From Minisyncoccota bacterium (GTDB taxonomy: Bacteria; Patescibacteriota; Minisyncoccia; Phycocordibacterales; JABAAK01), in assembly GCA_965222235.1 (NCBI GenBank), contig OZ244939.1:493942-557941 (forward strand): a DNA stretch of 64,000 bases. The letters run 5' to 3'. This document shows, piece by piece, positions 2,101-41,831 of the stretch. Position 1 is the first letter of the stretch; every line of letters begins with the position of its first letter. The position numbers and the translations under genes are program-made. The notes under the pieces are model-generated. The model did no database searches, was not told the origin of the DNA, and saw only the letters and a program-made list of their open reading frames with translations.

Positions 2101-2643
2101 ATGACCGAAGAACAACACAAAGAACCGGCGTGGTATGTGGTGAAAGTGCACAGCGGCTTTGAGCAGCCGGTGAAATCCAGCATTGAGCAGACTATTGAGG
2201 CGCTTGACCTGCAGGACCGGATATTTGACATCATCATTCCCATAGAAAAACGGGTGCGCATCAAGGGGGGTAAGCGAATTGAAAAAGATGAGCGCATCTA
2301 TCCCGGCTATATTCTCGTGCACATGGTCATTGATGACCAAACCTGGTATGCGATTAATAATATTGAATACGTGTCCGGCTTTCTCGGCTCCCGTTCGCAT
2401 GCCGAATCGCTGTCGCAGGAGGAAGTGGATACCATCAAAGAACGGATGCGGGGGGATGTGGTGCAGCATCAGACGGAATACAGTGTAGGCGATGTGGTGA
2501 AAATTATTGAGGGGCCGTTTGCGGATTTGGACGGAAAGATCAGCGAAATTGATCCGAACAGGGGGCAGGCGACCGTGCTGATTCCCATGTTCGGCAGGGA
2601 AACGCCCATCAAACTGGATATTTTCCAGATTAGAAGTATATAA
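2101..2643 (+). CDS. nusG: transcription termination/antitermination factor NusG
   Basis: NGN domain (WYVVKVHSGFEQ) followed by a KOW motif (VGDVVKIIEGPFADLDGKISEID); conserved gene order. Confidence 0.9.
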   Translation: MTEEQHKEPAWYVVKVHSGFEQPVKSSIEQTIEALDLQDRIFDIIIPIEKRVRIKGGKRIEKDERIYPGYILVHMVIDDQTWYAINNIEYVSGFLGSRSHAESLSQEEVDTIKERMRGDVVQHQTEYSVGDVVKIIEGPFADLDGKISEIDPNRGQATVLIPMFGRETPIKLDIFQIRSI

Positions 2644-2653
2644 TACAGGAGAT

Positions 2654-3079
2654 ATGGCTAAGAACATACAGCAAATAATTAAACTTCAGATTGAGGCGGG
2701 CAAGGCGACACCGGCACCTCCGGTCGGCACCGCACTCGGCCCGGTCGGCATTAACATCGGCGATTTCTGTACGCAGTTCAACTCAGCATCAAAGGACAGA
2801 CAGGGGGAGATTGTGCCGGTGCTGCTCAATGTCTATGATGACCGGTCGTTTGACTTTATTCTCAAAACACCGCCCGCCTCATTCCTTCTGCGGAGGGCCG
2901 CGGATATTAAAAAAGGATCCGGCAAAAATCTCGTCAAAAAGGCCGGCACGGTGACGGAAGCGGATGTGCGCGCAATCGCCGAGAAAAAAATGGAAGATTT
3001 AAATGCGAGAGATGTTGACGCTGCCATGCAGGTTATCAAAGGCACCGCGCGGTCAATGGGCATAGAAGTGCGTGCGTAG
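2654..3079 (+). CDS. rplK: 50S ribosomal protein L11
   Basis: MAKNIQQIIKLQIEAGKATPAPPVGTALGPVGINIGDFC is the canonical L11 N-terminus. Confidence 0.95.
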   Translation: MAKNIQQIIKLQIEAGKATPAPPVGTALGPVGINIGDFCTQFNSASKDRQGEIVPVLLNVYDDRSFDFILKTPPASFLLRRAADIKKGSGKNLVKKAGTVTEADVRAIAEKKMEDLNARDVDAAMQVIKGTARSMGIEVRA

Positions 3080-3102
3080 TCGGAGAAATATCGCCGTGTG
3101 GT

Positions 3103-6100
3103 ATGATGTGCGGTATGACCGGCAGGAATGATGAACGGGAACGTGTATCCGACAGAGAAAAAAGCGTTCTTGCATTTTGGCGGGAAAACAATATTTTTGA
3201 AAAGAGCGAAAACGGCATTCGGTTGAGCGGACTGGACGCATATATATACCGTTTTTTAAAAAAAAGAAGCTTCGTCTTCTATGACGGACCGCCGTTTGCA
3301 ACCGGTCTGCCGCACTACGGTCACCTGTTAGTGAGCGCGGTAAAGGACGCCGTTTCGCGGTACAAAACCATGCGGGGGCACACCGTCCGCCGCCGGTGGG
3401 GGTGGGACTGCCACGGTCTGCCGCTTGAGGTTGAAATGGAAAAAAAGATCGGCAGCACCTCCCGGAAGGATATTGAAGCATACGGCATTGAAAAGTTTAA
3501 CAGCGGCATACGTGACACCGTTTTCACCTATGCCGATGAGTGGAAAAAAATCATTCCCCGCATCGGCCGGTGGGTTGATATGGAGAATGACTACCGTACA
3601 GTCAGCACCTCATATATGGAGTCGGTGTGGTCGGTATTTCACCGCCTGCACAAAAACGGATTCGTAAGCAGGGGGTTCAAGTCGCTGCATCTCTGTCCGC
3701 GATGCTCCACTACTGTGTCAAATGCCGAGGTCGCCGACAGCTATGACACACTCACCGACAGCGCGGTGTATGTGCTGTTCCCGCTCAGAGAGGATCCGAC
3801 GGTGCGCCTGGTCGCGTGGACGACGACGCCGTGGACCCTGTTCGGCAATATTGCGCTCGGTGTTGATGAGAATATGAAATATACGGTCATCAGCCGGAAC
3901 GGCGGACAGTATGTGGTGCATGAGCATGCACTGCATCTATTTAAAGACGGTGAGGTTGTCGGCACGAAACAGGGATCCGAGCTCATCGGCAAGGAATACA
4001 TACCGCCGTTTGACTACCTCTATGCGGATCAGCGGGGATTGAGCCCGGAGGTGCGGGAAAAACTAAAGAACGCATGGCGCGTCTACGGTGTGCCGTATGT
4101 GGATAGCGGGGTCGGCACCGGCATCGTGCATCTTGCACCGGCATACGGCTCAGATGACATGGAGACTGCCCGCCGGTACAATCTGCCGATTCACCACCAT
4201 GTGACGAAAGACGGAATGTTCGTTCCCGAGCTCGGTCCGTTCGCCGGGCTGCGGCCGAAACAGAAAGGAAATCCGGGGGAGACGGATGAAAAGATTCTCG
4301 CCGCGCTCCGTGAAAAAGGGGTTCTGCTGCACAGCGAGAATATTGAACACAGCTACCCGGTCTGCTGGCGCTGCGACACGCCGCTTCTGAACTACGCGGC
4401 TGATTCCTGGTTCGTGCATACCGACGCATATCGGGACAGGATGGTCGCTGAGAACAGGAAAGTTGCCTGGGTGCCGGCGCATGTTCGGGACGGTCGTTTC
4501 GGCAACTGGCTTCGGAACGCGCAGCCGTGGGCGGTGTCGCGGAGCCGTTTTTGGGGCGCGCCGCTGCCGATATGGCAGGTTGAAAAGACCGGCGAATACC
4601 TGATTATTGAATCTCTGGAAGAGATGTTCAGAAGGATGCGCGCGAACAACACCTTCACCTTTATCCGCCACGGACATGCCTTCAGTAATGAGCCGCGAAT
4701 ACTGAGCTGTTTTCCGGACGACGGGGTCGGTCTGACGGAGAAGGGAAAACAACAGGCGCAGGAGGTTGCGGAGAAGGTGCGGGACATGAAACCGACGGTC
4801 ATCTTCTGTTCGCCGCTGCAGCGAACTCGTGAAACGGCGGAGTACATAGCGCGTGCAACCGGAGCGGAAATACACGAAGATCCGCTTCTGACTGAAATTC
4901 AGATTCCCGAAATGCACGGCAGGCCGTACAACGAGATGCGTGAACTTGTGAAAACGAGCGGCGCCGACCGTGATATACGCCGAAACATCGGCACCGGAGA
5001 GTCATACCTTGATGTCTTTAAGCGGACACTGGAGTTTCTTGAGAAAGTTGACCGACAGTATACCGACGCCCATATCATCGTTGTAACGCACAAAATAGTG
5101 ATGACGAACGCGCGCATGGTTGAATCCATCACCGCGGCGAAAAATGATCATATGCGGAGGTACACCCTGCCCGGGAACGGCAACACCGCGATGTTCACCC
5201 TGCACTACAAGCAGGTGAAGCGGACGGACGACGGGGAAATTGATCTGCATCGGCCGTATATTGATTCAGTGGTGCTCTATGATGACGACGGCAATCCGGC
5301 GCGCCATATCGGCGAGGTGTTTGACTGCTGGTTTGAATCGGGCGCGATGCCGTACGGATCAAACCAGTATCCGTTTCTCAAAACGCCGTTTTTCAATCCG
5401 CTGAAGAATATCGGCTTCCCCGCGGATTTTGTGTGCGAAGCGATGGATCAGACCAGGGGCTGGTTCTACAGTCTCATGGCCATCGGTGTCGGCGCGTTCG
5501 GCAAGATGCCGTACCGCCGGGTGATTGCAACCGGGCTCATCCACGCTGAAGACGGAAAAAAGATGAGCAAAAGTCTGAAAAACTATTCCGATCCCATGGA
5601 CATCGTTGAGCGGTACGGGGCCGATTCACTCCGCCACTATCTGCTTGCCTCGCCGGTCACGCGCGGGGAAACGCTGAATTTCAAGGACAGTCAGGTTGAT
5701 GAGATCTATAAGAAAGTATACACCCGCCTGCATAACTGCTATAACTTTTATACCACCTATGGGCACCTGCCGCATGAGAAGGGGAGCACCCATCCGCTTG
5801 ATATATATATCCTTTCCCGTCTCGGTGAAATGCACCGCGCTATGACCCGGGGATTTGAGCGATACCGTCTTGACGAAGCCGCGACACCGATCGGCGGATT
5901 TGTGGAGGATCTGTCCGTATGGTATCTCCGCCGTTCACGGAACAGGATGCGGCATGATACGAAGGATGGTGCTCATGCGCGCGAAACGATGCGGACGGTA
6001 CTGACCGAGTGCGCGAAATGCATCGCCCCGGTTGCCCCTTTCCATGCCGAGCATCTGTTCCTGAGGATGCGGAAGCACAGTCCGAACATACTGCCAGAAA

Positions 6101-6648
6101 GTGTGCATCTGTGTTCCTGGCCGAAAAAGATGCCTATTAATACAAAGGCTGTAGCGATGATGGATACAGTCAGGGATGTCGTATCGGCGGCGCATGAACA
6201 GCGCGCGCAGGCAGGAATCAAGGTGCGACAGCCGCTGGCGCGCGTAACGATACAAACTGATATACCCGAACATCTGAGGGAGATTATCGCGGAGGAGATA
6301 CATGTGAAGCAGGTTGCCGTTGCGAAGGATGCCGGAAAAAAAGTTGTGCTGGATACCGAACTGACACCCGAACTGATTGCCGAAGGGTTCGTTCGTGAGT
6401 ATGTCAGATCCGTGCAGAACCTCAGAAAAGAGCAGCAGCTCTCAATGACCGAGACAGTTGCGGCGGTCCGCACCCATCTTCCTGACGAGCAGCGGGCATA
6501 CCTTCAGCGGCATGAGGACAGTGTGAAGGCGGAAATCCGCGCGGAGCGCATCATCTATGACGATCGTCCGATTGACGACGGACAGACGGTCACGATCGGA
6601 GATGTTCCGGTTTCACTCCTGCTGAAGAGGAGGCAGGAACAGTCCTGA
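3103..6648 (+). CDS. ileS: isoleucyl-tRNA synthetase carrying an inserted histidine-phosphatase (PGAM-like) domain
   Basis: HIGH motif (PHYGHLL), KMSKS motif and the class I IleS core (WFESGAMPY, DLHRPYID) are present. Residues ~520-680 (FIRHGHAFSNE ... IIVVTHKIVM) have the RHG and C-terminal His signature of the histidine phosphatase fold. Confidence 0.85.
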   Translation: MMCGMTGRNDERERVSDREKSVLAFWRENNIFEKSENGIRLSGLDAYIYRFLKKRSFVFYDGPPFATGLPHYGHLLVSAVKDAVSRYKTMRGHTVRRRWGWDCHGLPLEVEMEKKIGSTSRKDIEAYGIEKFNSGIRDTVFTYADEWKKIIPRIGRWVDMENDYRTVSTSYMESVWSVFHRLHKNGFVSRGFKSLHLCPRCSTTVSNAEVADSYDTLTDSAVYVLFPLREDPTVRLVAWTTTPWTLFGNIALGVDENMKYTVISRNGGQYVVHEHALHLFKDGEVVGTKQGSELIGKEYIPPFDYLYADQRGLSPEVREKLKNAWRVYGVPYVDSGVGTGIVHLAPAYGSDDMETARRYNLPIHHHVTKDGMFVPELGPFAGLRPKQKGNPGETDEKILAALREKGVLLHSENIEHSYPVCWRCDTPLLNYAADSWFVHTDAYRDRMVAENRKVAWVPAHVRDGRFGNWLRNAQPWAVSRSRFWGAPLPIWQVEKTGEYLIIESLEEMFRRMRANNTFTFIRHGHAFSNEPRILSCFPDDGVGLTEKGKQQAQEVAEKVRDMKPTVIFCSPLQRTRETAEYIARATGAEIHEDPLLTEIQIPEMHGRPYNEMRELVKTSGADRDIRRNIGTGESYLDVFKRTLEFLEKVDRQYTDAHIIVVTHKIVMTNARMVESITAAKNDHMRRYTLPGNGNTAMFTLHYKQVKRTDDGEIDLHRPYIDSVVLYDDDGNPARHIGEVFDCWFESGAMPYGSNQYPFLKTPFFNPLKNIGFPADFVCEAMDQTRGWFYSLMAIGVGAFGKMPYRRVIATGLIHAEDGKKMSKSLKNYSDPMDIVERYGADSLRHYLLASPVTRGETLNFKDSQVDEIYKKVYTRLHNCYNFYTTYGHLPHEKGSTHPLDIYILSRLGEMHRAMTRGFERYRLDEAATPIGGFVEDLSVWYLRRSRNRMRHDTKDGAHARETMRTVLTECAKCIAPVAPFHAEHLFLRMRKHSPNILPESVHLCSWPKKMPINTKAVAMMDTVRDVVSAAHEQRAQAGIKVRQPLARVTIQTDIPEHLREIIAEEIHVKQVAVAKDAGKKVVLDTELTPELIAEGFVREYVRSVQNLRKEQQLSMTETVAAVRTHLPDEQRAYLQRHEDSVKAEIRAERIIYDDRPIDDGQTVTIGDVPVSLLLKRRQEQS

Positions 6649-6651
6649 GCG

Positions 6652-7227
6652 CTACTGATGCAGCAGCGCGGTGTGCAGATGCCGTTCAAATTCACGGCGT
6701 GCGTCAGCGGATGACAGAACCTGATCAAGGATATCGGTGAACATGGTATGGCGTATAACAATATCGGGAACGTAGCCGAGTGCAGAGAGAGACATAACCT
6801 GTGCAACGAGCAGCACGGCACCGGCATGTTCGGCGGGTGACCGCTGCAGCTGCTGAACCGCGGTTTCAACGGTGTCAAACAACGCCACATCTCTGTCGCC
6901 GACGGGCGGCACGAGCGCATTAATATGAAGCAACAGGCGCACCAGTGCGGTATATTTCGTCTCATCTGACCATACATCGGCGAGTGTGTCGGTAACAGTG
7001 ATATCTTTCAGAACATTTCTTTTCCCCTGAACGGCGGAAAGGTACACCCGAGCGTACGGCTTCATTGCGGAGCGCATCTTGGCTCCCTCCCGCCGGATGC
7101 TCCGGGCATATATGCTGACAACGCCGCTTTCCCGGGTCAGTGCGTTGATAATCCGGTCCGCTTCGCCGACCCCTCTGGTGTGCAGGATAAAGGCGTCGGT
7201 CATAAGAATGGAGTATGCGCCGGTCAT
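6652..7227 (-). CDS. recO: DNA repair protein RecO-like (short form)
   Basis: The N-terminal OB-fold region (AFILHTRGVGEADRIINALTRESGVVSIYARSIRR) resembles the RecO N-terminus. Lies convergent with ileS. Confidence 0.45.
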   Translation of the reverse strand: MTGAYSILMTDAFILHTRGVGEADRIINALTRESGVVSIYARSIRREGAKMRSAMKPYARVYLSAVQGKRNVLKDITVTDTLADVWSDETKYTALVRLLLHINALVPPVGDRDVALFDTVETAVQQLQRSPAEHAGAVLLVAQVMSLSALGYVPDIVIRHTMFTDILDQVLSSADARREFERHLHTALLHQ

Positions 7228-9194: not shown

Positions 9195-10286
9195 TTGGCG
9201 GACGGGAAGTGTGCTACACTGAACATCATGAAAAAAGAAAATCATATCATGATTCGTATATCAACCGGAACGATAATGATTTTTTTCTTTTTACTGATTC
9301 TCGGCTGGTTCTTATATGAAACCAGATCGCTGGTTCTGATTATCATCGCCGCCGTCATATTTTCATTGGCCTTTGATCCGGGGAAGCGCTTTCTTGCCCG
9401 GCTGAAGATACCGGAGCCGATAGCGGTACTGATACTGTATATGGTGGTGTTTTTCATACTCATCTTTTTCCTGTATTCATTCATACCGATATTTATACAG
9501 CAGTATCAGGTCTTCTTAAACACACTTCCCGTTGCCGCGGAGACGGTGCAGGATTTCCTTGCCGGCACTATTCTGGAGGGTGTTATTATCACCGATGAAC
9601 TGGGAGCGTTTCTTAAAAACGCGGAATATGTAACGCAGCCGCTTCAGGCGATTATCAAGGCGCTCGGGGTGAGCGTATCGTCAACATTCGGCGGGCTGGT
9701 TAATATAGTACTGTTTCTCCTGCTCACGTTTCTTTTCTCGATCAATCCGAAGTCGCTTGATAATTTTCTCTTTGTTATCACGCCGAAACAGTACCGGAAG
9801 TATGTGAACAATCTTTGGGGCAGGACAAAAGTTAAAATGGGACAGTGGTTTCAGGGGCAGATGGTGCTCGTCTTCCTCATCAGCGTGCTCACATACTTCT
9901 CTCTTCTCATTATCGGCGTACCGAACGCGCTGTTCCTCGCGATTTTTGCCGGTGCGATGGAGATTGTGCCGATATTCGGTCCGCTGATCGGCGCCATCCC
10001 CGCGGTGCTCATGGCGCTGACAACCGGCGATCTGACCACAGTGATCCTCACTGTAACCGTGTTTGTCATCATCCAGCAGCTTGAAAATACGCTCATCTAC
10101 CCGCTCGTTGTCAGTAAGGTGGTGGGCATTTCATCCGTGCTCATCGTGCTCGCTATTGTTATCGGCGGATCCATCGGCGGCTTCATCGGGGTGCTCATTG
10201 CCGTTCCGCTCGCAGCGGTGATACAGGAATTTTTCAATGATGTGAAGTCGGGGAATCTTCAGAAACTGAGCGAATCCGACACGTAG
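9195..10286 (+). CDS. AI-2E family transporter (UPF0118 / PerM-like)
   Basis: Eight-TM topology with the characteristic EIVPIFGPLIGAIPAVLMAL motif. Confidence 0.7.
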   Translation: MADGKCATLNIMKKENHIMIRISTGTIMIFFFLLILGWFLYETRSLVLIIIAAVIFSLAFDPGKRFLARLKIPEPIAVLILYMVVFFILIFFLYSFIPIFIQQYQVFLNTLPVAAETVQDFLAGTILEGVIITDELGAFLKNAEYVTQPLQAIIKALGVSVSSTFGGLVNIVLFLLLTFLFSINPKSLDNFLFVITPKQYRKYVNNLWGRTKVKMGQWFQGQMVLVFLISVLTYFSLLIIGVPNALFLAIFAGAMEIVPIFGPLIGAIPAVLMALTTGDLTTVILTVTVFVIIQQLENTLIYPLVVSKVVGISSVLIVLAIVIGGSIGGFIGVLIAVPLAAVIQEFFNDVKSGNLQKLSESDT

Positions 10287-10295
10287 TCCGTCCCT

Positions 10296-11439
10296 ACATT
10301 CAAACTTCTAATTGAACACCTGTCAGTTTGTAATATGCCATCCTCTGGAGATTGACACCGGTCATGCGGTAGAATACCTCGTAAGGGGTCAGACCAGTAA
10401 GGCGTTTCCTGGGACGGGTATTCAATAGGTACTCAACCTTGGCAATGTCACGGTCATTGCTTTTGTCAAAGTCAGTCCCCTTCGGGAAACACCGACGGAA
10501 CAATCCGTTGGTGTTCTCGTTTGATCCTCTTTCATGAGAGCAGTACGGATGGGCGAAGTAGCAGGAGAGACTGAGTTCTTTTTCAACGGTGCGGTACCCC
10601 CTATTCTCCGCCCCTCTGTCCTGGGTGAGGGTCTTGCGGTATCTCGGAGGGACAGCGCGCATTCGTCTGATGATTGCCGCGTCACAGGACTCAGCGGTAC
10701 CGTCTTTTGTTTTCTCAAAGAATGCCAGACCGGTCATCTTTTCATTCATACTCTTTACCCTAACGCTGCTTTTCCTTGAGAGCATGGTGTCACCTTCCCA
10801 ATGACCGATTACCCCCTCTATCCCCGGTCTCTCCTCAATGGAGGGCAAGGCCGCTCTTCGTTCTGTTTTCTGTGTGTTTCTCACTCCTTGCCGTATGCGT
10901 CTCTTCCTTCTTCTCGGCAGAAGAGACCGTAAGTCTAGATACCCCGGTTTCACGATACCGTGTCCGCTTTGGTGAATCTGCGCATATATGAAGGTATATA
11001 TCGTCTCATGAGATACCCGCATGGTTGTGTCCTCCGGAAACTCCCGGGGAAGACGAATACTCACCTGCTCGGGAGACCATCCTTCCTCCATCTTCTCCCG
11101 CACATACCCAAGGAGTGCTCTGTCGGTCAGCACTCCTTTCCTCCCCCGGGTGTGTATCCTTTTCTCTGCTTCCCGCTGTGCCCTCAGCGCGCAGTACCGT
11201 CCGACTCCTTTTCTCGGTTTTCCCCCTATTTCCCGATGTATGGTTCCCGGTGACCTGCCCAACTCTTTCGCTATCTCCCGCAGGGATCTCTTGTCAGCAC
11301 AGTATCTCACTTCAATACTACTCCGTTCATGAATATTCAGACGGGTGAACGGTTCCCGTCTCTTTTTCTTTGCTTTTGTCATATGTCTCCAGTATTACTT
11401 GGTATATGACAGGTGTTCTATTATTTGTTTGAACTTAGG
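10296..11439 (-). mobile_element. IS30-family insertion sequence (~1.14 kb) with imperfect terminal inverted repeats
   Basis: Encodes a complete IS30 transposase. The ends share an imperfect inverted repeat with a conserved core (left ...ttcaaac..gaacacctgtca..; right ..tgacaggtgttc..gtttgaac..). The right-end 51 bp recurs identically at 20718-20768. Confidence 0.75.
10300..11382 (-). CDS. IS30-family DDE transposase
   Basis: N-terminal HTH followed by a DDE region with the IS30 signature IGHWEGDTM ... LTQDRGAEN ... SNENTNGLFRRCFPKGTDF. Confidence 0.9.
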   Translation of the reverse strand: MTKAKKKRREPFTRLNIHERSSIEVRYCADKRSLREIAKELGRSPGTIHREIGGKPRKGVGRYCALRAQREAEKRIHTRGRKGVLTDRALLGYVREKMEEGWSPEQVSIRLPREFPEDTTMRVSHETIYTFIYAQIHQSGHGIVKPGYLDLRSLLPRRRKRRIRQGVRNTQKTERRAALPSIEERPGIEGVIGHWEGDTMLSRKSSVRVKSMNEKMTGLAFFEKTKDGTAESCDAAIIRRMRAVPPRYRKTLTQDRGAENRGYRTVEKELSLSCYFAHPYCSHERGSNENTNGLFRRCFPKGTDFDKSNDRDIAKVEYLLNTRPRKRLTGLTPYEVFYRMTGVNLQRMAYYKLTGVQLEV

Positions 11440-16939: not shown

Positions 16940-19900
16940 ATGAAGATTGCAAATAAATTAACTGTAGGGTTGGTTTCTATTGCTTTTGTTACCTCGTCAG
17001 TGATTGCGTTCTCAGCGACAACGTTCGCTCAGGATCCGGTTGCTGATCTGCAGGCACAGCTCGCCGCTTTGACGGCACAGCTGGCTGCGCTGGAGGGAGC
17101 ACCGACCGTGACGACAACGTCAACGGGCGGATCAAGCAATGCAGCATGTCCATACACATGGGCAAGAAACCTTACCATCGGATCTACTGGCGATGACGTC
17201 CGCCAGTTGCAAAGATTCCTTAATGGTAACCCTCAGACTCAAGTAGCGACCTCAGGCACCGGATCTCCGGGCAATGAGACCAGCTACTACGGACCTGCGA
17301 CTGCTCGAGCGGTCAGCAAGTTCCAAGAGATGTACGCTGCACAGATCTTGACCCCCTTGGGATTGACGAAGGGTACCGGCGGATTCTACACATCCACGCG
17401 AAATCATGCGAACAACCTGTGTAGAGTTGCCACACAGAGGGCTCCGAGCCCTCGTCCTGCTCCAGGAACACCCCGTCCTCCCACATATCCGGAAACCCCT
17501 CGACCGACAGTACCGACGGGTGATACATTGGCGGTGGCTGCCGGAAAGCACCCCGGCGATTCATTCGCAGTGTTGGGTGCTCAGCGAGTACCGTTCACTT
17601 CAATCGTGCTCACTGCCGGAGGCAGTAATGTTCGTGTAGAAGGTATCCGGGTGAAGCAGTTCGGTCTGTCTTCCTCTGATAACTTTGACAGTGTCGCGCT
17701 CGTTGATGTAAACGGCGTGCAGATTGGTTCCTCAAGGAGCCTCAACAGCCGTGACGAAGCACTACTCGGCGGTAACTTTGTTATCCCGAAAAACCGTTCA
17801 GTAACTCTGGCGGTTGTCGGTAACATTGCTGACACTGTTAAGACCGCCAGTCAGTCAGGTCTTCAGTCAGGTGCCGTTGCGGGACTTGAAGTTGTGGAAA
17901 TTTCCGCTGACACGAATGTGGGCGGACAGTTCCCGATTCGAGGTGCCGCACATGTCATGTCTGACAGCATCACACTGCAGAAAGTTGAAGTGGATATTGA
18001 TCGTGCAGAAGGTGAGGTTGAGCTGAACACTGACACCGAAGTCACTTCTATCAAGATCGGCTTCGGCGGAGCAGCTGACGAAGAAGACGGCTATCTCCGA
18101 TCAATCACCCTTGAACAGGACGGAACCGCCGACGAAGACGAAGTCGGTGATGTGGAGATTCTCATAGACGGCGACGAGGTTGAACACAGCATTGTTGTTG
18201 ACGGCGACCGATATGTCATTAACTTTGACAGTCCCGGCGTTATGATTGAAGAGAACGAGGACATTGAAGTTTCGTTGCAGATCAACACCGGAACCGGCGC
18301 AGGAGAAACCGTCAGGTTTATCCTTGACGACCCTGCTGACATCTATGTTGTCGGTAGTAAGTACGGCTATGGTCTGCCGATTGACACTGACGCAAACGGC
18401 GATTTGGCGGCTGATGATGCCGGTACCGGTGAAGAATACACCACCATTCAGGCAGGAGAGATATCGGGAGGTAAAGTGGGTGACTTTGAAGATGAGATTA
18501 CCTACGGCAAAGATCGAGTCCTCGGTGCTCTTGAAGTTGAATTTGAAGGTGAAGACATTCACATGGAAGACCTTACCTTCAGCGTTACACTGGATGCGGA
18601 GCCGTATACCGATGCAAATGATAATGCGTGGGTAGAAGCCGAAGAAGATGAGGTTCGACTGAGCGGTCTGCACCTGCGAATTGACGGTGAGCGAGTGGCT
18701 TCTGCAGATGAAGATGTTGAATTCAAGAAGACCGAAGGCACAGACGGATTAATAACAAAGTCGGTTGATTTCTCTGACAGATTTGAGGTTGATGTCCGCG
18801 GAACTCGCGAGGTATTGTTTGAGATTGTTGCAGACCTTGATGAGGACTGGAGTAACTTTGATAGTTCCACCATTGAGTTCATACTGACTGATGTTGATGA
18901 AGCCGAAGGTGAGGTTTCCGAAGATGACTACACCGCAAATGGTAAGTACTTCTACCCTGACCTAAAATTTGAGAGTGTTACGATCAAAGGAAATCTTGTT
19001 GACTTCAATATCAGCAACAACGGCGTTGACGAAGTGTCATATGTCCACGGTGCTGAAGATGTTGTCTTTGCTACGCTTGAGGTTGACACCGATGACGCGA
19101 TTGATGATATAGAGATTAATGATCTGTATATTTCATTTGAGGCAACGGTAGGTGCTAATCTCCGCGATTTGCGCGATTGTCGTATTCTTGACGAGGGTGG
19201 AAAAGAGATTGGAGACGCAAGCTCTCTGAAGGGTTCGCATGTCAGGTTTGAATCTGACGATTCAACAGCAAACACGACCCCGGTATATGATGACAATGTA
19301 CGGTTCAGGTTTGACAGCGGCGGCTACACAGTAGAAGCCGGCAAGGAGATTGACCTTGATATTGTCTGTGACATTGACGATGATGCAAATGAAGATGACA
19401 CCTACCAGGTGCTTGTGAGAACAGCAACAGACATTCCCAATAAAGATGACGGCAGCAGAGTCAGGTACGAAGTTGGTCGTGATGACTTTACCTTTGATTT
19501 TGAAGACGGTGACTCCGACGAGATTAAGGTATCAGGATCCGGCACGCTGTCCGTTACCACTGACAGTCCCTCTGACGACTTTGTTTTTGCTGTAGCAACC
19601 GGTAAAAGCGGAGGAGCAGACAATGTTGAAGTTCTGGAGATTGATTTGGAAGCCGAAGACGAAGATATTGTCATCAAGGCCATATATCTTGCTGAAGTGA
19701 AGATCAAGGGTGTCGCTGCAACTAAAGAATCACTCGGAAATCTCATTGATACGGCTCGGTTCCGCCTCAACAAGATGGTAACTGCTCGTCCCGGTGACTT
19801 CAAGGAAGTAGATCTTGACACTGATAACGACGCAGAAACCGCTGACGAGAAGGTCCTCGCTCTTGAATTCGACAACATCAGTGGGACCATCAAAGCTGGT

Positions 19901-20629
19901 ACTGAAAAGACCATCACGATAGGTCTTGATCTTGACAGTATTGGTGAGCGAGATAGAGATCACGCAGGTTTGTACCTGACAGCAGGTAAGATCTATGTTG
20001 AGTGGGAAGGTAAGGAGAGTGACCGTGAACAGATAACCGAGTACGACATACCGTCATCTGACTTTGCTAAAGCGGTTGTGTTCCCGAATACTATTTCGGT
20101 GAATGCAAATGCAAACAGCAATGACAATCTGAAGAATGGTAGCAACAAAAAGATCTATGAGTTCAGCGTGACTAACGGAGGCACTGGAGATGCATATCTC
20201 AGACAGGTTGGCCTTGACTTCTCAATATCGGCCGGAGTAACACTTACAAAGGTTACGATTCACAGAGGAACAAGCGCAAGCAATCCCGAGGTAACTGCGT
20301 CACAGACCATTACATCAGGACCGAATAAGAAGTTTGAGTTTACCAGAGCTGAAGAAGTGGAGGGTAAGAAAACACTTCGCTACTCTGTGTACGCCACCAT
20401 TGCCGGTGTAGGCACAGACGATTCGCTCGTAACTGAGTTGTCAATTGACTCTGAAACAGCCAGCCCGGTAGTTGGTCAGGAGTTCGCAACCATCAAGGGT
20501 GGTAAAAACTTTGTATGGTCTCCGAACACCTACGACAAGGATGGCGCGAAAACCGACAATGCAGACTGGTTCAGCGGATGGGGTATCTTTGATGACGGAG
20601 ATGTTGACGACTGGTCACTGAATAAGTAA
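16940..20629 (+). CDS. large secreted acidic cell-surface protein with N-terminal coiled coil and peptidoglycan-binding-like domain
   Basis: Signal peptide, a heptad-like repeat (LQAQLAALTAQLAALEG) and a PG_binding_1-like segment (TIGSTGDDVRQLQRFLN...YGPATARAVSKFQ). A Pro-rich linker (PSPRPAPGTPRPPTYPETPRPTVP) follows, then ~900 aa of extremely Asp/Glu-rich beta-rich sequence. Confidence 0.6.
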   Translation: MKIANKLTVGLVSIAFVTSSVIAFSATTFAQDPVADLQAQLAALTAQLAALEGAPTVTTTSTGGSSNAACPYTWARNLTIGSTGDDVRQLQRFLNGNPQTQVATSGTGSPGNETSYYGPATARAVSKFQEMYAAQILTPLGLTKGTGGFYTSTRNHANNLCRVATQRAPSPRPAPGTPRPPTYPETPRPTVPTGDTLAVAAGKHPGDSFAVLGAQRVPFTSIVLTAGGSNVRVEGIRVKQFGLSSSDNFDSVALVDVNGVQIGSSRSLNSRDEALLGGNFVIPKNRSVTLAVVGNIADTVKTASQSGLQSGAVAGLEVVEISADTNVGGQFPIRGAAHVMSDSITLQKVEVDIDRAEGEVELNTDTEVTSIKIGFGGAADEEDGYLRSITLEQDGTADEDEVGDVEILIDGDEVEHSIVVDGDRYVINFDSPGVMIEENEDIEVSLQINTGTGAGETVRFILDDPADIYVVGSKYGYGLPIDTDANGDLAADDAGTGEEYTTIQAGEISGGKVGDFEDEITYGKDRVLGALEVEFEGEDIHMEDLTFSVTLDAEPYTDANDNAWVEAEEDEVRLSGLHLRIDGERVASADEDVEFKKTEGTDGLITKSVDFSDRFEVDVRGTREVLFEIVADLDEDWSNFDSSTIEFILTDVDEAEGEVSEDDYTANGKYFYPDLKFESVTIKGNLVDFNISNNGVDEVSYVHGAEDVVFATLEVDTDDAIDDIEINDLYISFEATVGANLRDLRDCRILDEGGKEIGDASSLKGSHVRFESDDSTANTTPVYDDNVRFRFDSGGYTVEAGKEIDLDIVCDIDDDANEDDTYQVLVRTATDIPNKDDGSRVRYEVGRDDFTFDFEDGDSDEIKVSGSGTLSVTTDSPSDDFVFAVATGKSGGADNVEVLEIDLEAEDEDIVIKAIYLAEVKIKGVAATKESLGNLIDTARFRLNKMVTARPGDFKEVDLDTDNDAETADEKVLALEFDNISGTIKAGTEKTITIGLDLDSIGERDRDHAGLYLTAGKIYVEWEGKESDREQITEYDIPSSDFAKAVVFPNTISVNANANSNDNLKNGSNKKIYEFSVTNGGTGDAYLRQVGLDFSISAGVTLTKVTIHRGTSASNPEVTASQTITSGPNKKFEFTRAEEVEGKKTLRYSVYATIAGVGTDDSLVTELSIDSETASPVVGQEFATIKGGKNFVWSPNTYDKDGAKTDNADWFSGWGIFDDGDVDDWSLNK

Positions 20630-23588: not shown

Positions 23589-25958
23589 ATGTATGATCAT
23601 AAGGATATAGAGAAGAGATGGCGGAAGCGCTGGGAGGAGGACAACACATATACCACCGATGACGATCCGGTGAAAAAGAAGTGCTATACGCTGGTGATGT
23701 TTCCGTATCCGTCCGGAGACGGGCTGCATGTCGGTCATGCGCGCATCTACATCGGTGCTGATATCTATGCCCGCCTGAAACGGATGCAGGGATACCGGGT
23801 ACTCCATCCTATGGGGTGGGATGCATTCGGTCTGCCGGCGGAGGAATACGCCATCAGGCACAAACAACATCCCCGGGAATCGGTCGAAAAGAATATAGCG
23901 ACATTCAAGGAGCAGTGCAGACACCTCGGACTGTCATATGACTGGGACCGGGAAATCAACACCACCGATCCCTCGTTCTATACCTGGACACAGTGGATTT
24001 TTCTCAAACTTTTCAAAAGGGGGCTGGCGTATGAGTCAAACGCACCGGTGAACTGGTGTCCGTCCTGCAAAACAGGCCTTGCCAATGAGGATCTGGAGGG
24101 GGGGCGCTGCGAGCGGTGCGGCTCGTCAGTGGAGCGCAGGTCAATCCGGCAGTGGGTCCTGCGGATCACGGACTATGCCGACCGCCTGCTGGATGATCTG
24201 AACTCGCTGCCCGGATGGTTTGATTCGGTGAAGGAGGTGCAGCGGAACTGGATCGGCAGAAGCGGGGGGTACACAATCCCTTTCACACTCCGGCCGGTCA
24301 ATACGACAATTGATATATTCACCACCCGACCGGACACACTCTACGGCTGCTCTTTCATCGCCCTCTCCCCGGAAAATCCGGTCATCGCCGCCCTGCTCCC
24401 CCATACGAAAAACAGGGAGGAGGCGGAGGCATACCGCACCCGGGCATTTACCGCCAAAGCGCAGGAGACGGAGAAGGAACAGACCGGTGTGCGGCTGCTG
24501 GGCATTCATGCACTGCATCCGATAACTAAAAAAGAGATTCCGGTATATATCGCGGATTTCGTACTCGGAGGATACGGCACCGGCACCCTATTCGGCTCAC
24601 CGGCGCATGACGAACGGGATTTCGCCTTTGCGAAACGGTACGACCTTCCCATTACGCAGGTAGTCGCCGGTACGGGCGACCTTCCGCTGACTGACACGAC
24701 TCCCGACGCGCCGCTGATGCATTCGGAGGAATACAACGGCATGCCGTCGGAGCGGGCGAAGCCGGTGCTCACTGATGCCGCCGGCGGAAAGAAAACGACG
24801 GCATACCGGCTGCAGGACTGGGTATTTTCCCGACAGCGGTACTGGGGCGAACCTATACCGCTCATCCATTGCGGGCAGTGCGGTATTGTACCCGTGCCCG
24901 AAGAGGATCTGCCGGTGGTCCTGCCGGACATTGATGCATATGAGCCGACCGGAACGGGCGAATCGCCGCTTGCCCTGGTGGAGGATTGGGTGAATGTTCC
25001 CTGTCCGTCCTGCGGGGCGCCGGGCAGGCGGGAGACGAACACCATGCCACAGTGGGCGGGGTCATCCTGGTACCATCTGCGGTATATTGATCCGCACAAC
25101 AACACCGAACTATGTGCAGCAGACCGGGAAAAGGAATGGATGCCGGTTGATATATACACCGGCGGCATGGAGCATGCAGCGCGGCATCTCATTTACGCCC
25201 GCTTCTGGCACAAGGTACTCAGGGACATCGGCGCGGTGAGCACGGATGAGCCGTACAGCAAGCTCAGAACGGTCGGTATCGTGCAGGCGGAAGGCGGCGG
25301 CAAAATGAGCAAGCGTCTCGGCAATGTTATCAATCCGATCTCCGTTGCCGACGCAGTCGGTACCGATGCACTGCGCATATATATTGCACACATTGCGCCG
25401 TTCTCTCAGACCGTGGCATGGGACAGCCGTGCCGTGGCCGGACCGAGACGGTTCCTTGAGCGTGTCTGCACGCTGCGGAAGCGCGTTCAGGACGGTGTGC
25501 CGGATCGGGAAACAGAGCAGCTGCAGCATCAGACGATTCGTTCAGTGGTCGGTGATATTGAGACGTACCGTTTTAACACGGCTGTCTCGGCGCTGATGAT
25601 TTTTGCCAAGGCGCTGTCAGAGGCGGATACCGTTTCCCGGGACAGCTATACCGTCCTCATACAGCTGCTCGCGCCGTTTGCGCCGTATCTCGCGGAGGAG
25701 CTGTGGAGCGGTATGGGGCATATCGGATCGGTACACCGCTCAGGGATGCCGGTCGGAGACGAAATGCTTGCCCGGAAGGATACAGTGGCTGTGGCCGTAC
25801 AGATTAAGGGCAAAACCAGGGGTACCGTCACGGTTCCCCGGGGGAGCGGACAGCTCCTGGTTAGGGAACAAATAGCCCAGAATAAGCGTTTGTCAGCCGC
25901 CACAGCAGATCTGTCGGTCAGGGCATATGTGGAGGACAGAATCATCAGTTTTGTGTGA
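23589..25958 (+). CDS. leuS: leucyl-tRNA synthetase
   Basis: HIGH-region PYPSGDGLHVGHARIY, KMSKS-type GKMSKRLGNVI, the CP1 editing region and a Zn-knuckle (CPSC...CERCG). Confidence 0.95.
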   Translation: MYDHKDIEKRWRKRWEEDNTYTTDDDPVKKKCYTLVMFPYPSGDGLHVGHARIYIGADIYARLKRMQGYRVLHPMGWDAFGLPAEEYAIRHKQHPRESVEKNIATFKEQCRHLGLSYDWDREINTTDPSFYTWTQWIFLKLFKRGLAYESNAPVNWCPSCKTGLANEDLEGGRCERCGSSVERRSIRQWVLRITDYADRLLDDLNSLPGWFDSVKEVQRNWIGRSGGYTIPFTLRPVNTTIDIFTTRPDTLYGCSFIALSPENPVIAALLPHTKNREEAEAYRTRAFTAKAQETEKEQTGVRLLGIHALHPITKKEIPVYIADFVLGGYGTGTLFGSPAHDERDFAFAKRYDLPITQVVAGTGDLPLTDTTPDAPLMHSEEYNGMPSERAKPVLTDAAGGKKTTAYRLQDWVFSRQRYWGEPIPLIHCGQCGIVPVPEEDLPVVLPDIDAYEPTGTGESPLALVEDWVNVPCPSCGAPGRRETNTMPQWAGSSWYHLRYIDPHNNTELCAADREKEWMPVDIYTGGMEHAARHLIYARFWHKVLRDIGAVSTDEPYSKLRTVGIVQAEGGGKMSKRLGNVINPISVADAVGTDALRIYIAHIAPFSQTVAWDSRAVAGPRRFLERVCTLRKRVQDGVPDRETEQLQHQTIRSVVGDIETYRFNTAVSALMIFAKALSEADTVSRDSYTVLIQLLAPFAPYLAEELWSGMGHIGSVHRSGMPVGDEMLARKDTVAVAVQIKGKTRGTVTVPRGSGQLLVREQIAQNKRLSAATADLSVRAYVEDRIISFV

Positions 25959-35600: not shown

Positions 35601-35613
35601 GCATATGTACCAT
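32602..35613 (-). CDS. secreted cysteine-rich tandem-repeat protein, the only full-length family member with ATG start and signal peptide (copy A)
   Basis: True ATG at 35613 and signal peptide MHVAHPKLALCLGLFSLVCILIATSSA, then a ~100-aa unique N-terminal region. Two ~115-aa repeats follow, then three perfect 107-aa repeats (CSCGSWTPARSTACSGNSLTQTRTCTGC...DTSCSST) plus a variant terminal unit and a unique Cys-rich C-terminal tail. Ser/Thr/Cys content is very high. Confidence 0.8.
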   Translation of the reverse strand: MVHMHVAHPKLALCLGLFSLVCILIATSSANVVTADTQYHGNESCTTIANPGLVSSGRGVRVEANSAEEVSATHNGVWRCRNITNNTNSDVFVGNTTAEELCSFFEYHPSGISSSLCEKSHTHCTPVAGQCGSGRNQCAAGNANDAAAPDGTYTYNWVCEGTCDGHSPTCSASRNRCIESSCSSWTPSTSLTCSTDTVTQTRTCPSGSACGIEQEEVSGTKTCTCTPTSWTEGSRTCYPPNYTKVAHGSSGTFEDTSGGSRGSVSYSCSSTVLTYTDENCERYVAPVVTHGGWSSWTPSTSLTCSTDTVTQTRRCNNPSPRNGGTECSRENGTTTTASNRTETRTISGTKTCTCTPTSWTEGSRTCYPPNYTKVAHGSSGTFEDTSGGSRGSVSYSCSSTVLTYTDENCERYVAPPTCSCGSWTPARSTACSGNSLTQTRTCTGCPSSTPKSRSTTGTKSASAVGCRCTGGRQTWSTNCSDYVSLKSHGSSFSATNDKSYYTGSATFSCDTGSWSVSDTSCSSTCSCGSWTPARSTACSGNSLTQTRTCTGCPSSTPKSRSTTGTKSASAVGCRCTGGRQTWSTNCSDYVSLKSHGSSFSATNDKSYYTGSATFSCDTRSWSVSDTSCSSTCSCGSWTPARSTACSGNSLTQTRTCTGCPSSTPKSRSTTGTKSASAVGCRCTGGRQTWSTNCSDYVSLKSHGSSFSATNDKSYYTGSATFSCDTGSWSVSDTSCSSTCSCGSWTSWTPATSTECKGVSFTQTRTRSCTGCSSSKSTSQSRSKTGTKTTGACSIIGRCGTTRDRCKSGWSAVQTTQHDTSTHEKWRCQGPASAGRRLTSLCSVVKNPCGPGGSVVTTGSCCKTNECGGHAGQRRCCEPALGGSCTVRWRTDRFGFWGGVGCKDATSTCSKFCRYPGDCERKNVSWRVTSCSGSGKDKYCSTRWCSGSVQRGSNGSIRSVTDTINYSSCGTETGGSATVRCSNGRWSISGGTCSSVTDPGNCAR
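33390..34420 (-). repeat. near-perfect 321-bp tandem repeat array (3 units plus flanking variant units) inside copy A
   Basis: The six-frame track shows identical ORF translations recurring with a 321-bp period on both strands (33516/33837/34158 and 33539/33860/34181). Confidence 0.85.
34797..35308 (-). repeat. inverted-repeat arm L (~512 bp, within 5' coding region of copy A)
   Basis: Near-identical in reverse complement to 35672-36183. Both strands yield identical ORF translations in the track (34931..35152 vs 35824..36045, and 35116..35403 vs 35669..35860). Confidence 0.85.
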
Positions 35614-41595: not shown

Positions 41596-41831
41596 GTCGG
41601 TTTCCTCTCGTGTGTGAATGGACAAGTATGATTTACTCTAATGCCTATTTTACCACACTATCTATTTATATACAATTTTTGTGGATTTTGCCCTGAAACC
41701 TTTTAGATACAAAGGCTATCTGTCCGTGCTGTGATGTGTCGCAGAAATCGTTTCCCAAACGGACACTGTGTCTAGAATTCTTCTCTCTTGTATGTATTCT
41801 GATTGCCGCATCCTCCACCAATGTGGCAATG

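What the first reader, a model, noticed from the sequence alone, without database searches (positions are those of the whole stretch)
4651..5140. Isoleucyl-tRNA synthetase with an inserted histidine-phosphatase (PGAM/SixA-like) domain
A ~160-aa segment with the hallmarks of the histidine phosphatase superfamily is inserted between the conserved IleS segments ...PIWQVEKTGEYLIIESLEEM and DLHRPYIDSVVLYDD...WFESGAMPY. The hallmarks are the N-terminal RHG motif (FIRHGHAFSNE), a central conserved Arg/Glu region (PLQRTRETAEYIA) and a C-terminal His (IIVVTHKIVM). This is a whole-domain insertion into an essential class I aaRS, not a short linker. It could add a phosphatase or nucleotide-processing side activity, or be a degenerate fold acquisition.
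Basis: seen in the sequence. Interest (0 to 1): 0.55.

Follow-up and report, generated by a model that had tools for sequence, protein, structure and literature searches.

The report
Isoleucyl-tRNA synthetase carrying a phosphatase domain
The essential enzyme that loads isoleucine onto tRNA here carries a complete, apparently active phosphatase domain spliced into one of its surface loops; this fusion is conserved across a large group of ultra-small (Parcubacteria) bacteria, and no paper describing it was found in the library searched.

Summary
Window ORF 3103-6648 (+, 1181 aa) is a type-2 isoleucyl-tRNA synthetase (IleRS; TIGR00392 750 bits, cut-off 621).

It sits in the CP3 subdomain, inside the former zinc-knuckle hairpin, where insert-free IleRS2 has only a few residues.

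It is not an artefact or a one-off. The 80 best species genomes (cap) are all Patescibacteria/Parcubacteria and all carry it in frame. More than 150 clusters at 50% identity match the whole region.

The catalytic set R522-H523, N529, R574, E598 and H663 is 96-100% conserved, although the insert is only about 27% identical to the window. dN/dS of the insert is 0.04-0.17. The model (pLDDT 89) matches PhoE, PspA and CobC-type phosphatases, not dPGM or SixA.

Relatives carry the same module at two other IleRS loops, or in 2-4 copies. A few also carry GNAT, NUDIX, kinase or hydrolase inserts. One lineage swapped the cassette.

Best reading: a working IleRS with a tethered, active phosphomonoesterase. 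Its substrate is unknown. No paper on it was found. Interest 0.65.

The parts
3103..6648 (+). ileS gene: type-2 isoleucyl-tRNA synthetase with an internal phosphatase domain (1181 aa plus stop)
   Evidence: ORF list. TIGR00392 ileS equivalog scores 750 bits against a 621 cut-off. The best PDB sequence match is P. megaterium IleRS2 8c8v, E 1e-182. The full-length AF2 model has pLDDT 90.6 and pTM 0.85 and superposes on IleRS2, ScIleRS and TtIleRS with TM(target) 0.81-0.89.
3103..4626 (+). IleRS N-terminal part (aa 1-508): first Rossmann half with the HIGH motif (HYGH, nt 3313-3324), CP core, CP1 editing domain, CP2 and the first strand of CP3
   Evidence: Pfam tRNA-synt_1 stretch at aa 53-512. 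Motif positions. Aligns to 8c8v residues 7-475. CP3 assigned from the CaIleRS domain limits in PMC7191050.
4627..5241 (+). Inserted histidine-phosphatase (His_Phos_1) domain, aa 509-713 (Pfam envelope aa 519-703 = nt 4657-5211)
   Evidence: Pfam E 2.9e-33. The domain AF2 model has pLDDT 89.1 and pTM 0.87. Foldseek top hits are PspA 4ij6, PhoE 1ebb/1h2e, 6s2q, Rv2419c and HFP 9mmh, TM about 0.74, E about 1e-13. phmmer aligns it to PhoE 1h2e.
4666..4674 (+). RHG motif: R522, H523 (predicted phospho-accepting nucleophile), G524
   Evidence: 80/80 conserved in the homologue alignment. Aligns with the RHG of PhoE.
4687..4689 (+). N529, conserved phosphate-pocket Asn
   Evidence: 79/80 conserved.
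4822..4824 (+). R574, second catalytic Arg (SPLQRTRETAE)
   Evidence: 80/80 conserved. Aligns with the Arg of PhoE 'SGRALETAE'.
4894..4896 (+). E598, predicted proton donor (LLTEIQIP)
   Evidence: 77/80 conserved. Aligns with the Glu of PhoE 'LREIHLG'.
5089..5091 (+). H663, second catalytic His (VVTHKIV)
   Evidence: 80/80 conserved. Aligns with the His of PhoE 'VTHGVV'.
5242..6648 (+). IleRS C-terminal part (aa 714-1181): rest of CP3 (DLHRPYID...), second Rossmann half (WFESG at nt 5329-5343, KMSKS at nt 5560-5574), anticodon-binding domain and DUF5915 C-terminal domain
   Evidence: Pfam Anticodon_1 at aa 900-1048 and DUF5915 at aa 1052-1175. Motif positions. Aligns to 8c8v residues 482-863.

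Best explanation
This is a bifunctional protein. It is a complete, working type-2 IleRS whose CP3 subdomain hairpin (formerly a Cys4 zinc knuckle) hosts an autonomously folding, catalytically competent histidine phosphatase of the PhoE, PspA and CobC type.

Inferred chemistry, as established for the superfamily: His523 attacks a phosphomonoester to form a phospho-histidine intermediate. R522, R574, N529 and H663 hold the phosphate, and E598 protonates the leaving group and then activates water.

The substrate is most likely a small, possibly nucleotide-like, phosphorylated metabolite rather than the aminoacylation intermediates. What selection maintains appears to be the physical and expression tethering of the phosphatase to IleRS, not a precise active-site geometry. 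The reason is that relatives carry the same module at two other surface loops and in tandem copies.

Shown here: domain identity, fold, insertion site, intact IleRS motifs, conservation, purifying selection and distribution.

Inferred, not shown: enzymatic activity, substrate class, and why the module is tethered to IleRS.
For: - Domain identity and IleRS integrity.
- Fold and nearest structures.
- Catalytic residues: R522, H523, G524, R574 and H663 are 80/80, N529 is 79/80 and E598 is 77/80. Median insert identity to the window is only 27%, against 51% for the core.
- Purifying selection: dN/dS of the insert is 0.04-0.17 against 0.03-0.10 for the core, in close pairs with unsaturated dS.
- Co-inheritance: insert and core distances co-vary (Mantel r 0.73, 0/999 permutations).
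- Distribution: all 80 best species genomes (cap) carry it in one uninterrupted alignment in a single reading frame in 79 of 80; one of these has an in-frame stop and the 80th a frameshift. More than 150 clusters at 50% identity match the whole profile at E <= 5e-92. 1044 clusters at 90% identity reach E <= 1e-20, and the best 120 all combine PF00133 with PF00300.
- Three insertion sites: A (CP3), B (between WFESG and DQTRGWF) and C (after KMSKS). Tandem copies of 2-4 occur, and all full-length copies keep R-H, R, E and H.
- Nearest free-standing relatives lie in cobalamin and serine-pathway gene contexts, that is, small-molecule phosphatases.
- The insert is not basic (median pI 6.3).
Against: - No activity or substrate was measured.
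- No NCBIfam equivalog of any characterised phosphatase reaches its cut-off (best is CobC, 89 against 162.9), so the substrate class is a guess.
- Repeated, site-independent capture by IleRS specifically, plus one cassette swap, hints at a functional link to IleRS or tRNA(Ile) that a generic housekeeping phosphatase does not explain.
- The residue after the catalytic His is usually E, D or N (K in the window) rather than the Gly seen in PhoE (VTHG). The meaning of this is unknown.
- I could not inspect model coordinates, so I do not know whether the phosphatase pocket faces the IleRS active site or the tRNA.
Confidence: 0.68

Rival explanations
1. tRNA-end healing or quality control. The module acts on tRNA(Ile) held by the synthetase. 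It would remove a 3'-phosphate or 3'-pyrophosphate (for example one left by nucleases, or added by toxSAS-type toxins) so that A76 can be aminoacylated. The phosphatase activity of the HD domain of some CCA-adding enzymes would be the analogue; that comparison rests on my own knowledge.
For: - The association is specifically with an aaRS and recurs at three sites.
- Rare relatives add a P-loop kinase of the AAA_33/Zeta type, an alpha/beta serine hydrolase, GNAT or NUDIX. These are all chemistries that can act on RNA ends or aminoacyl esters.
- The junction residues are modelled with high confidence (pLDDT about 95 at aa 491-520).
Against: - No histidine-phosphatase-superfamily member with RNA 3'-phosphatase activity is known to me.
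- The insert is not basic.
- The three insertion sites are far apart in sequence (CP3, second Rossmann half, anticodon-binding domain). That argues against a fixed geometry towards A76.
- LeuRS and AlaRS in the same window lack the module.
Confidence: 0.12
2. Conflict or detoxification module. The phosphatase, and the GNAT, kinase, esterase and NUDIX inserts of relatives, inactivate an IleRS-directed inhibitor or a toxic nucleotide at the target itself.
For: - The accessory inserts belong to classic small-molecule-modifying enzyme classes.
- GNATs are proven immunity enzymes against aaRS inhibitors (TfxH; bioRxiv 10.64898/2025.12.02.691738).
- NCBIfam curates an 'ileS_w_GNAT' family.
- The cassette swap between near-identical IleRS cores (L061/L065) resembles arms-race modularity.
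Against: - No IleRS inhibitor that a phosphomonoesterase would inactivate is known to me.
- No PADLOC defence model matches.
- The insert is under ordinary purifying selection and mostly tracks the core phylogeny.
- The other enzyme inserts are rare compared with His_Phos.
Confidence: 0.1
3. Protein phosphatase. The module dephosphorylates IleRS itself, for example after inhibitory phosphorylation by a HipA-like kinase near the ATP site, or it dephosphorylates a partner protein, as PGAM5, Sts-1 and SixA do.
For: - The superfamily includes protein phosphatases.
- The module is covalently tethered to one specific protein.
Against: - The sequence and fold neighbours are metabolite phosphatases. 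SixA scores 25.8 against a 74.5 cut-off.
- No kinase partner was seen in the neighbourhood, which is nusG-rplK-ileS-recO.
Confidence: 0.06
4. Non-catalytic graft. The fold is kept as a structural, tRNA-binding or regulatory (ligand-sensing) element, and phosphatase chemistry is irrelevant.
For: - The insert evolves faster than the core (27% against 51% identity to the window).
- About half of the carriers have lost the flanking zinc knuckle, so the insert may have taken over a structural role.
Against: All five catalytic positions are conserved in 77-80 of 80 sequences and in every full-length tandem copy. That is hard to explain without catalysis or at least phosphate binding.
Confidence: 0.04

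Closest known systems
Type-2 (eukaryote-like, mupirocin-resistant) IleRS, e.g. Priestia megaterium IleRS2 (PDB 8c8v/8c8u) and Thermus thermophilus IleRS (1ile)
   Same: Full-length homology outside the insert (E 1e-182). The core fold is the same (TM 0.81-0.89). HIGH, KMSKS, CP1 editing domain, anticodon-binding domain and DUF5915 C-terminal domain are all present. Many relatives keep the TtIleRS-type Cys4 zinc motif in CP3.
   Different: About 205 extra residues forming a phosphatase domain sit inside the CP3 hairpin, where 8c8v has about 6 residues (475 to 482). The window protein has lost the four zinc-binding Cys.
Broad-specificity and metabolite phosphatases of histidine-phosphatase branch 1: PhoE (1h2e/1ebb), PspA phosphoserine phosphatase (4ij5/4ij6), CobC alpha-ribazole phosphatase (6nru, TIGR03162)
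   Same: Same fold and the same catalytic R-H, R, E, H set. Similar size.
   Different: Identity is only about 20-26%. No equivalog cut-off is reached. The domain is not free-standing but spliced into another enzyme. The residue after the catalytic His is usually E, D, N or K rather than the Gly seen in PhoE (VTHG).
NCBIfam NF040702 'isoleucine--tRNA ligase, N-acetyltransferase domain-containing' (ileS_w_GNAT)
   Same: A curated precedent for an IleRS with an internal accessory enzyme domain. Some His_Phos-bearing relatives also carry GNAT inserts.
   Different: The window protein scores 285 against a cut-off of 1999 and has no GNAT. The inserted enzyme is a phosphatase.
Mycobacterial fusions of a histidine-phosphatase domain to nucleic-acid or nucleotide enzymes: RNase H/acid phosphatase (NF005567, Rv2228c type) and MutT1 NUDIX+HPD 8-oxo-(d)GTP phosphatase (NF052459)
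   Same: A CobC/PhoE-like histidine-phosphatase domain is covalently joined to an enzyme of nucleic-acid or nucleotide metabolism. One relative (P0184) even combines NUDIX and His_Phos in IleRS.
   Different: Those are end-to-end fusions, not loop insertions. The partner enzymes differ. Scores are far below cut-off (71 against 326; 20 against 475).

Membership tests
Histidine phosphatase superfamily, branch 1 (Pfam His_Phos_1 / PGAM-like) | Profile match above the curated threshold | tested here: met
   115.6 bits against 21.7, E 2.9e-33, covering profile positions 2-182 of 194.
Histidine phosphatase superfamily, branch 1 (Pfam His_Phos_1 / PGAM-like) | N-terminal RHG motif with the nucleophilic His, plus a second Arg, a second His and an acidic proton donor | tested here: met
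   R522-H523-G524, R574, H663 and E598 are present. They align with the corresponding PhoE residues and are conserved in 77-80 of 80 homologues.
Histidine phosphatase superfamily, branch 1 (Pfam His_Phos_1 / PGAM-like) | Alpha/beta/alpha fold of the superfamily | tested here: met
   AF2 pLDDT 89.1. Foldseek probability 1.00 and TM about 0.74 to PspA, PhoE, Rv2419c and TIGAR.
Histidine phosphatase superfamily, branch 1 (Pfam His_Phos_1 / PGAM-like) | Phosphatase or mutase activity through a phospho-His intermediate | not testable with these tools
   Needs an enzyme assay with an H523A control.
Cofactor-dependent phosphoglycerate mutase (dPGM) | Equivalog-level profile match | tested here: not met
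   dPGM_arch 76.8 against 225; pgm_1 24.2 against 81.7; GpmB 55.9 against 261. By eye, LTEIQIPEMHG replaces the mutase-type ERHYG context (sequence, own knowledge).
SixA phosphohistidine phosphatase | TIGR00249 equivalog match | tested here: not met
   25.8 bits against a 74.5 cut-off, and only the N-terminal 68 residues align.
CobC alpha-ribazole phosphatase | TIGR03162 equivalog match | tested here: not met
   This is the best NCBIfam hit but is below cut-off: 89.1 against 162.9.
Isoleucine--tRNA ligase (TIGR00392 ileS), type 2 | Equivalog profile match | tested here: met
   750.2 bits against 621.4, in two stretches split by the insert. Closest solved structure is the type-2 enzyme 8c8v.
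Isoleucine--tRNA ligase (TIGR00392 ileS), type 2 | Class I signature motifs HIGH and KMSKS, and the core fold | tested here: met
   HYGH at aa 71-74 and KMSKS at aa 820-824. The model superposes on IleRS structures with TM(target) 0.81-0.89.
Isoleucine--tRNA ligase (TIGR00392 ileS), type 2 | Ile-tRNA(Ile) synthesis activity; sole IleRS of the genome | not testable with these tools
   No second IleRS is found in the 64-kb window. The whole genome was not available.
ileS_w_GNAT (NF040702); MupA/MupB resistance IleRS (NF000257/8) | Exception-level profile match | tested here: not met
   285 against 1999; 570 and 617 against 1900.
Intein or other self-splicing insert | Hint-domain homology and nucleophilic junction residues | tested here: not met
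   The insert is a His_Phos fold. In relatives the residue after the conserved C-terminal 'PHN' is E, R, D or G, not C, S or T (alignment).

The most novel reading that the evidence does not exclude
Parcubacterial IleRS is a platform that has repeatedly captured enzymes acting on its own tRNA or ligands. On this reading the histidine phosphatase, and the kinase, esterase, GNAT and NUDIX modules in some relatives, form an on-board system. That system would heal or de-toxify the 3' end of tRNA(Ile), for example by removing 3'-(pyro)phosphate placed by toxins. Alternatively it would neutralise IleRS-directed inhibitors. Either way it would be a previously unrecognised layer of aaRS-embedded defence or repair in ultra-small symbiotic bacteria.
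Probability: 0.15. Interest if true: 0.85.

Novelty: new variant of a known kind. Interest (0 to 1): 0.65.

Why it matters
Aminoacyl-tRNA synthetases are among the most conserved enzymes. Whole catalytic domains inserted into the catalytic body are rare in bacteria.

Here an active-looking phosphatase has been maintained inside IleRS across a large part of the Parcubacteria under purifying selection. It has been captured or relocated at three different loops, duplicated in tandem, and at least once swapped as a cassette. That pattern implies a selected functional link between isoleucine charging and a dephosphorylation reaction, in organisms with minimal genomes and obligate host dependence.

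Identifying the substrate could reveal a new moonlighting or repair function of an aaRS. The insertion is also a lineage marker, and it probably explains why annotation pipelines name these proteins only 'class I tRNA ligase family protein' or 'histidine phosphatase family protein'.

Tried and rejected
- **Domain-only search.** A word-indexed homologue search with the domain alone returned a single hit. The index is too coarse for a 27%-identity family. The profile searches were needed.
- **Split IleRS genes.** Many 700-830-aa 'IleRS+His_Phos' proteins on long contigs looked like split genes. Loci L081 and L082 show contiguous fragments, with other genes fragmented as well. These are therefore frameshift artefacts of long-read assemblies, and the split-gene idea was rejected.
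- **Mapping extra insertions.** hmmalign smeared the extra insertions over match states. I replaced it with gaps between local HMM hits.
- **Domain tree.** A neighbour-joining tree of the domain copies is star-like and does not resolve whether the site-B and site-C copies derive from site A or from outside. Only HMM scores suggest they are closer to site-A copies than to the free-standing relatives sampled.
- **Intein or selfish insert.** Rejected: no Hint homology and the wrong junction residues.
- **Defence-system membership.** No PADLOC hit.
- **Nucleic-acid-binding signature.** The insert is not basic (median pI 6.3).
- **AFDB search.** The afdb50 fold library was not available.
- **Literature.** Seven searches aimed at this architecture found no paper describing it.
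- **Model geometry.** Model coordinates are not exposed, so the distance from the phosphatase pocket to the synthetic site or to A76 could not be measured.
Full report
**1. What is in the sequence**

The window has one long ORF at 3103-6648 on the + strand, encoding 1181 aa.

Pfam places tRNA-synt_1 in two stretches, with a His_Phos_1 domain between them at aa 519-703 (E 2.9e-33; 115.6 bits against a 21.7 cut-off). Anticodon_1 and DUF5915 follow. NCBIfam's ileS equivalog is passed (750 bits against 621), again in two stretches.

HIGH (HYGH, aa 71-74) and KMSKS (aa 820-824) are intact.

The inserted segment is aa 509-713 (nt 4627-5241), about 205 aa.

The identical protein was assembled independently from another sequencing run, with the same nusG-rplK-ileS-recO context. 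It is also on record on a 641-kb contig. Assembly chimerism is therefore excluded.

**2. Where the insert sits**

The best solved relative is P. megaterium type-2 IleRS (8c8v, E 1e-182). Window aa 12-509 align to its residues 7-475, and aa 709-1087 align to residues 482-863. About 200 residues therefore replace about 6.

By the Candida albicans IleRS domain limits (CP3 = 473-534), the site is in the CP3 subdomain. In T. thermophilus IleRS this subdomain carries a zinc motif (PMC7191050).

In 35 of 80 homologues the insert is bracketed by W-x-C-x2-C ... C-x-C, which is that zinc knuckle. The window protein and 33 others have lost all four Cys.

IleRS2 sequences without the insert have 68-96 aa between WGxPxP and WFESG, against 265 here.

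The full-length AF2 model is confident (pLDDT 90.6, pTM 0.85; junction residues 491-520 about 95). Its core superposes on IleRS2, yeast IleRS-tRNA and TtIleRS with TM(target) 0.81-0.89. The graft does not disturb the synthetase fold.

**3. What the insert is**

The domain model (pLDDT 89.1, pTM 0.87) matches metabolite phosphatases of histidine-phosphatase branch 1. These are PspA phosphoserine phosphatase, PhoE, mycobacterial hydrolases, glucosyl-3-phosphoglycerate phosphatase, the riboflavin-pathway HFP, TIGAR and CobC (TM about 0.74, E about 1e-13).

phmmer aligns RHG, the second Arg, the Glu and the second His with those of PhoE.

No NCBIfam equivalog is reached:
- CobC 89 against 162.9
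- dPGM_arch 77 against 225
- PspA 70 against 350
- SixA 26 against 74.5

It is therefore a bona fide family member of unassigned specificity, not a mutase and not SixA.

The nearest free-standing relatives found are about 26-28% identical. One lies in a cobalamin cluster and one lies next to serA/serC-like genes. A third lies in a miscellaneous context.

**4. How widespread it is, and whether it is selected**

Distribution:
- A scan of one genome per species returned at least 579 related stretches. All are Patescibacteria/Parcubacteria: Kaiser-, Taylor-, Lloyd- and Nomurabacteria, Paceibacterota, and bins labelled 'uncultured Saccharibacteria'.
- 79 of the 80 carry IleRS plus insert as one uninterrupted alignment in a single reading frame. 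One of these has an in-frame TAG and the 80th has a frameshift.
- An exhaustive profile search of 1.84 billion representatives gave more than 150 clusters at 50% identity matching the full region at E <= 5e-92.
- The word-indexed search gave 1044 clusters at 90% identity, and the best 120 all combine PF00133 with PF00300.
- Public names are 'Isoleucine-tRNA ligase', 'class I tRNA ligase family protein' or 'histidine phosphatase family protein, partial'.

Selection:
- In the 80-sequence alignment R522, H523, G524, R574 and H663 are invariant. N529 is 79/80 and E598 is 77/80. Median identity to the window is 27% in the insert and 51% in the core.
- For close pairs with unsaturated dS, dN/dS is 0.04-0.17 in the insert against 0.03-0.10 in the core.
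- Insert and core distances co-vary (Mantel r 0.73, 0/999 permutations).

This indicates an old insertion, mostly inherited vertically and kept under purifying selection.

**5. Unexpected variation in relatives**

Insertion sites:
- Some IleRS carry the module at site B instead of CP3. Site B lies between WFESG..YPF and FPADF..DQTRGWF (P0173, P0167, P0147).
- Some carry it at site C, after KMSKS at the start of the anticodon-binding helices (P0164, P0192).
- Some carry combinations: A+B in P0123, A+C in P0065 and P0180, B+C in P0169.

Tandem arrays of 2-4 copies occur. Every full-length copy keeps the catalytic set.

A few proteins add other enzyme domains in frame:
- NUDIX (P0184)
- GNAT (P0188; two copies in P0189)
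- a P-loop kinase of the AAA_18/AAA_33/Zeta/CPT type (P0159)
- an alpha/beta serine hydrolase (P0192)
- an IS200-like Y1 transposase fragment (P0063)

One cassette replacement is clear. L061 and L065 are 94% identical in the core but 36-39% in the insert, with sharp boundaries and higher dS inside the insert. L061's insert resembles those of lineages whose cores are only 61-65% identical to it.

**6. Interpretation**

Solid:
- The IleRS is intact and its core fold is unperturbed.
- It carries an inserted phosphatase that looks catalytically competent.
- The architecture is conserved across the Parcubacteria.

Inferred:
- The phosphatase works by the standard phospho-His mechanism on a phosphomonoester.
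- Because the module functions at three distant loops and in tandem, tethering to IleRS seems to matter more than fixed geometry.
- Its neighbours in sequence and fold are metabolite or nucleotide-like phosphatases, and it is not basic. I therefore favour a small-molecule substrate (confidence about 0.68 for the bifunctional, active-phosphatase reading).

The repeated IleRS-specific capture, the accessory enzyme classes and the cassette swap keep more exciting readings open: tRNA 3'-end healing, inhibitor detoxification, or a cis protein phosphatase. GNAT immunity against aaRS inhibitors is documented, but nothing here tests these ideas directly.

LeuRS (23589-25958) and AlaRS (49468-51321) in the same window have no such insert. 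There is no second IleRS or His_Phos in the window.

**7. Novelty**

No paper in the held library mentions this architecture. Sequences are public and auto-annotated.

It is a new variant of a known kind, namely an aaRS with an accessory domain. NCBIfam's ileS_w_GNAT is the nearest curated precedent. Interest 0.65.

Noticed in passing
relatives P0173, P0167, P0147, P0164, P0192, P0169, P0065, P0180, P0123: The same His_Phos module occurs at two other IleRS loops: between WFESG and DQTRGWF, and after KMSKS. Sometimes it is there instead of the CP3 site, sometimes in addition to it.
   Followed up: yes
relatives P0071, P0122, P0078, P0174, P0034: Tandem arrays of 2-4 His_Phos domains lie within one IleRS insert. 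All full-length copies keep the catalytic residues.
   Followed up: partly
relatives P0184, P0188, P0189, P0159, P0192, P0063: Additional in-frame enzyme inserts occur in His_Phos-bearing IleRS. They are NUDIX, GNAT (up to two), a P-loop kinase (AAA_18/AAA_33/Zeta/CPT-like), an alpha/beta Ser_hydrolase and an IS200-like Y1 transposase fragment. They sit at about window aa 229-306 (CP1) and about aa 760-767.
   Followed up: partly
L061 vs L065 (also L035 vs L046): Cassette-like replacement of the phosphatase insert. In L061 vs L065 the cores are 94% identical, the inserts 36-39%, the boundaries are sharp and dS is higher inside the insert. L035 vs L046 shows the same discordance (core 84%, insert 44% identical).
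   Followed up: partly
window 4567-4626 and 5242-5300; 80 loci: The CP3 zinc knuckle (CxxC...CxC) that brackets the insert is complete in 35 of 80 carriers. It is fully lost in 34, including the window protein.
   Followed up: yes
window 10300-11382 (-): A 360-aa ORF with an N-terminal HTH_38 domain and a transposase-like sequence (IS30-like by eye). It lies in a stretch with strongly negative GC skew.
   Followed up: no
window 16940-20629 (+), 32602-35613 (-), 41959-44067 (+), 39973-41625 (-): Four very large ORFs (1229, 1003, 702 and 550 aa) have no Pfam match at E <= 1e-5.
   Followed up: no
window 1-64000: No tRNA gene (ARAGORN) and no Rfam family at gathering score in the whole 64-kb window.
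   Followed up: no
window 49468-51321 (+): The AlaRS is only 617 aa. It ends right after the tRNA_SAD domain, so it appears to lack the usual C-terminal extension.
   Followed up: no
L017 (codon 124 of the HSP); L070; L081; L082: In public assemblies the IleRS of some relatives is interrupted. L017 has a TAG replacing a conserved Trp, and L070 has a frameshift. In the long-read contigs L081 and L082 the gene is split into 2-3 called genes. These look like sequencing or assembly errors rather than real split genes.
   Followed up: partly
window 2101-7227; L081, L082, L089: The local gene order nusG-rplK-ileS-recO recurs in the independent assembly. The ileS-recO adjacency is also seen in L082. 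An AI-2E-family transporter lies downstream in L081, and the 363-aa membrane ORF at window 9195-10286 may correspond to it.
   Followed up: partly
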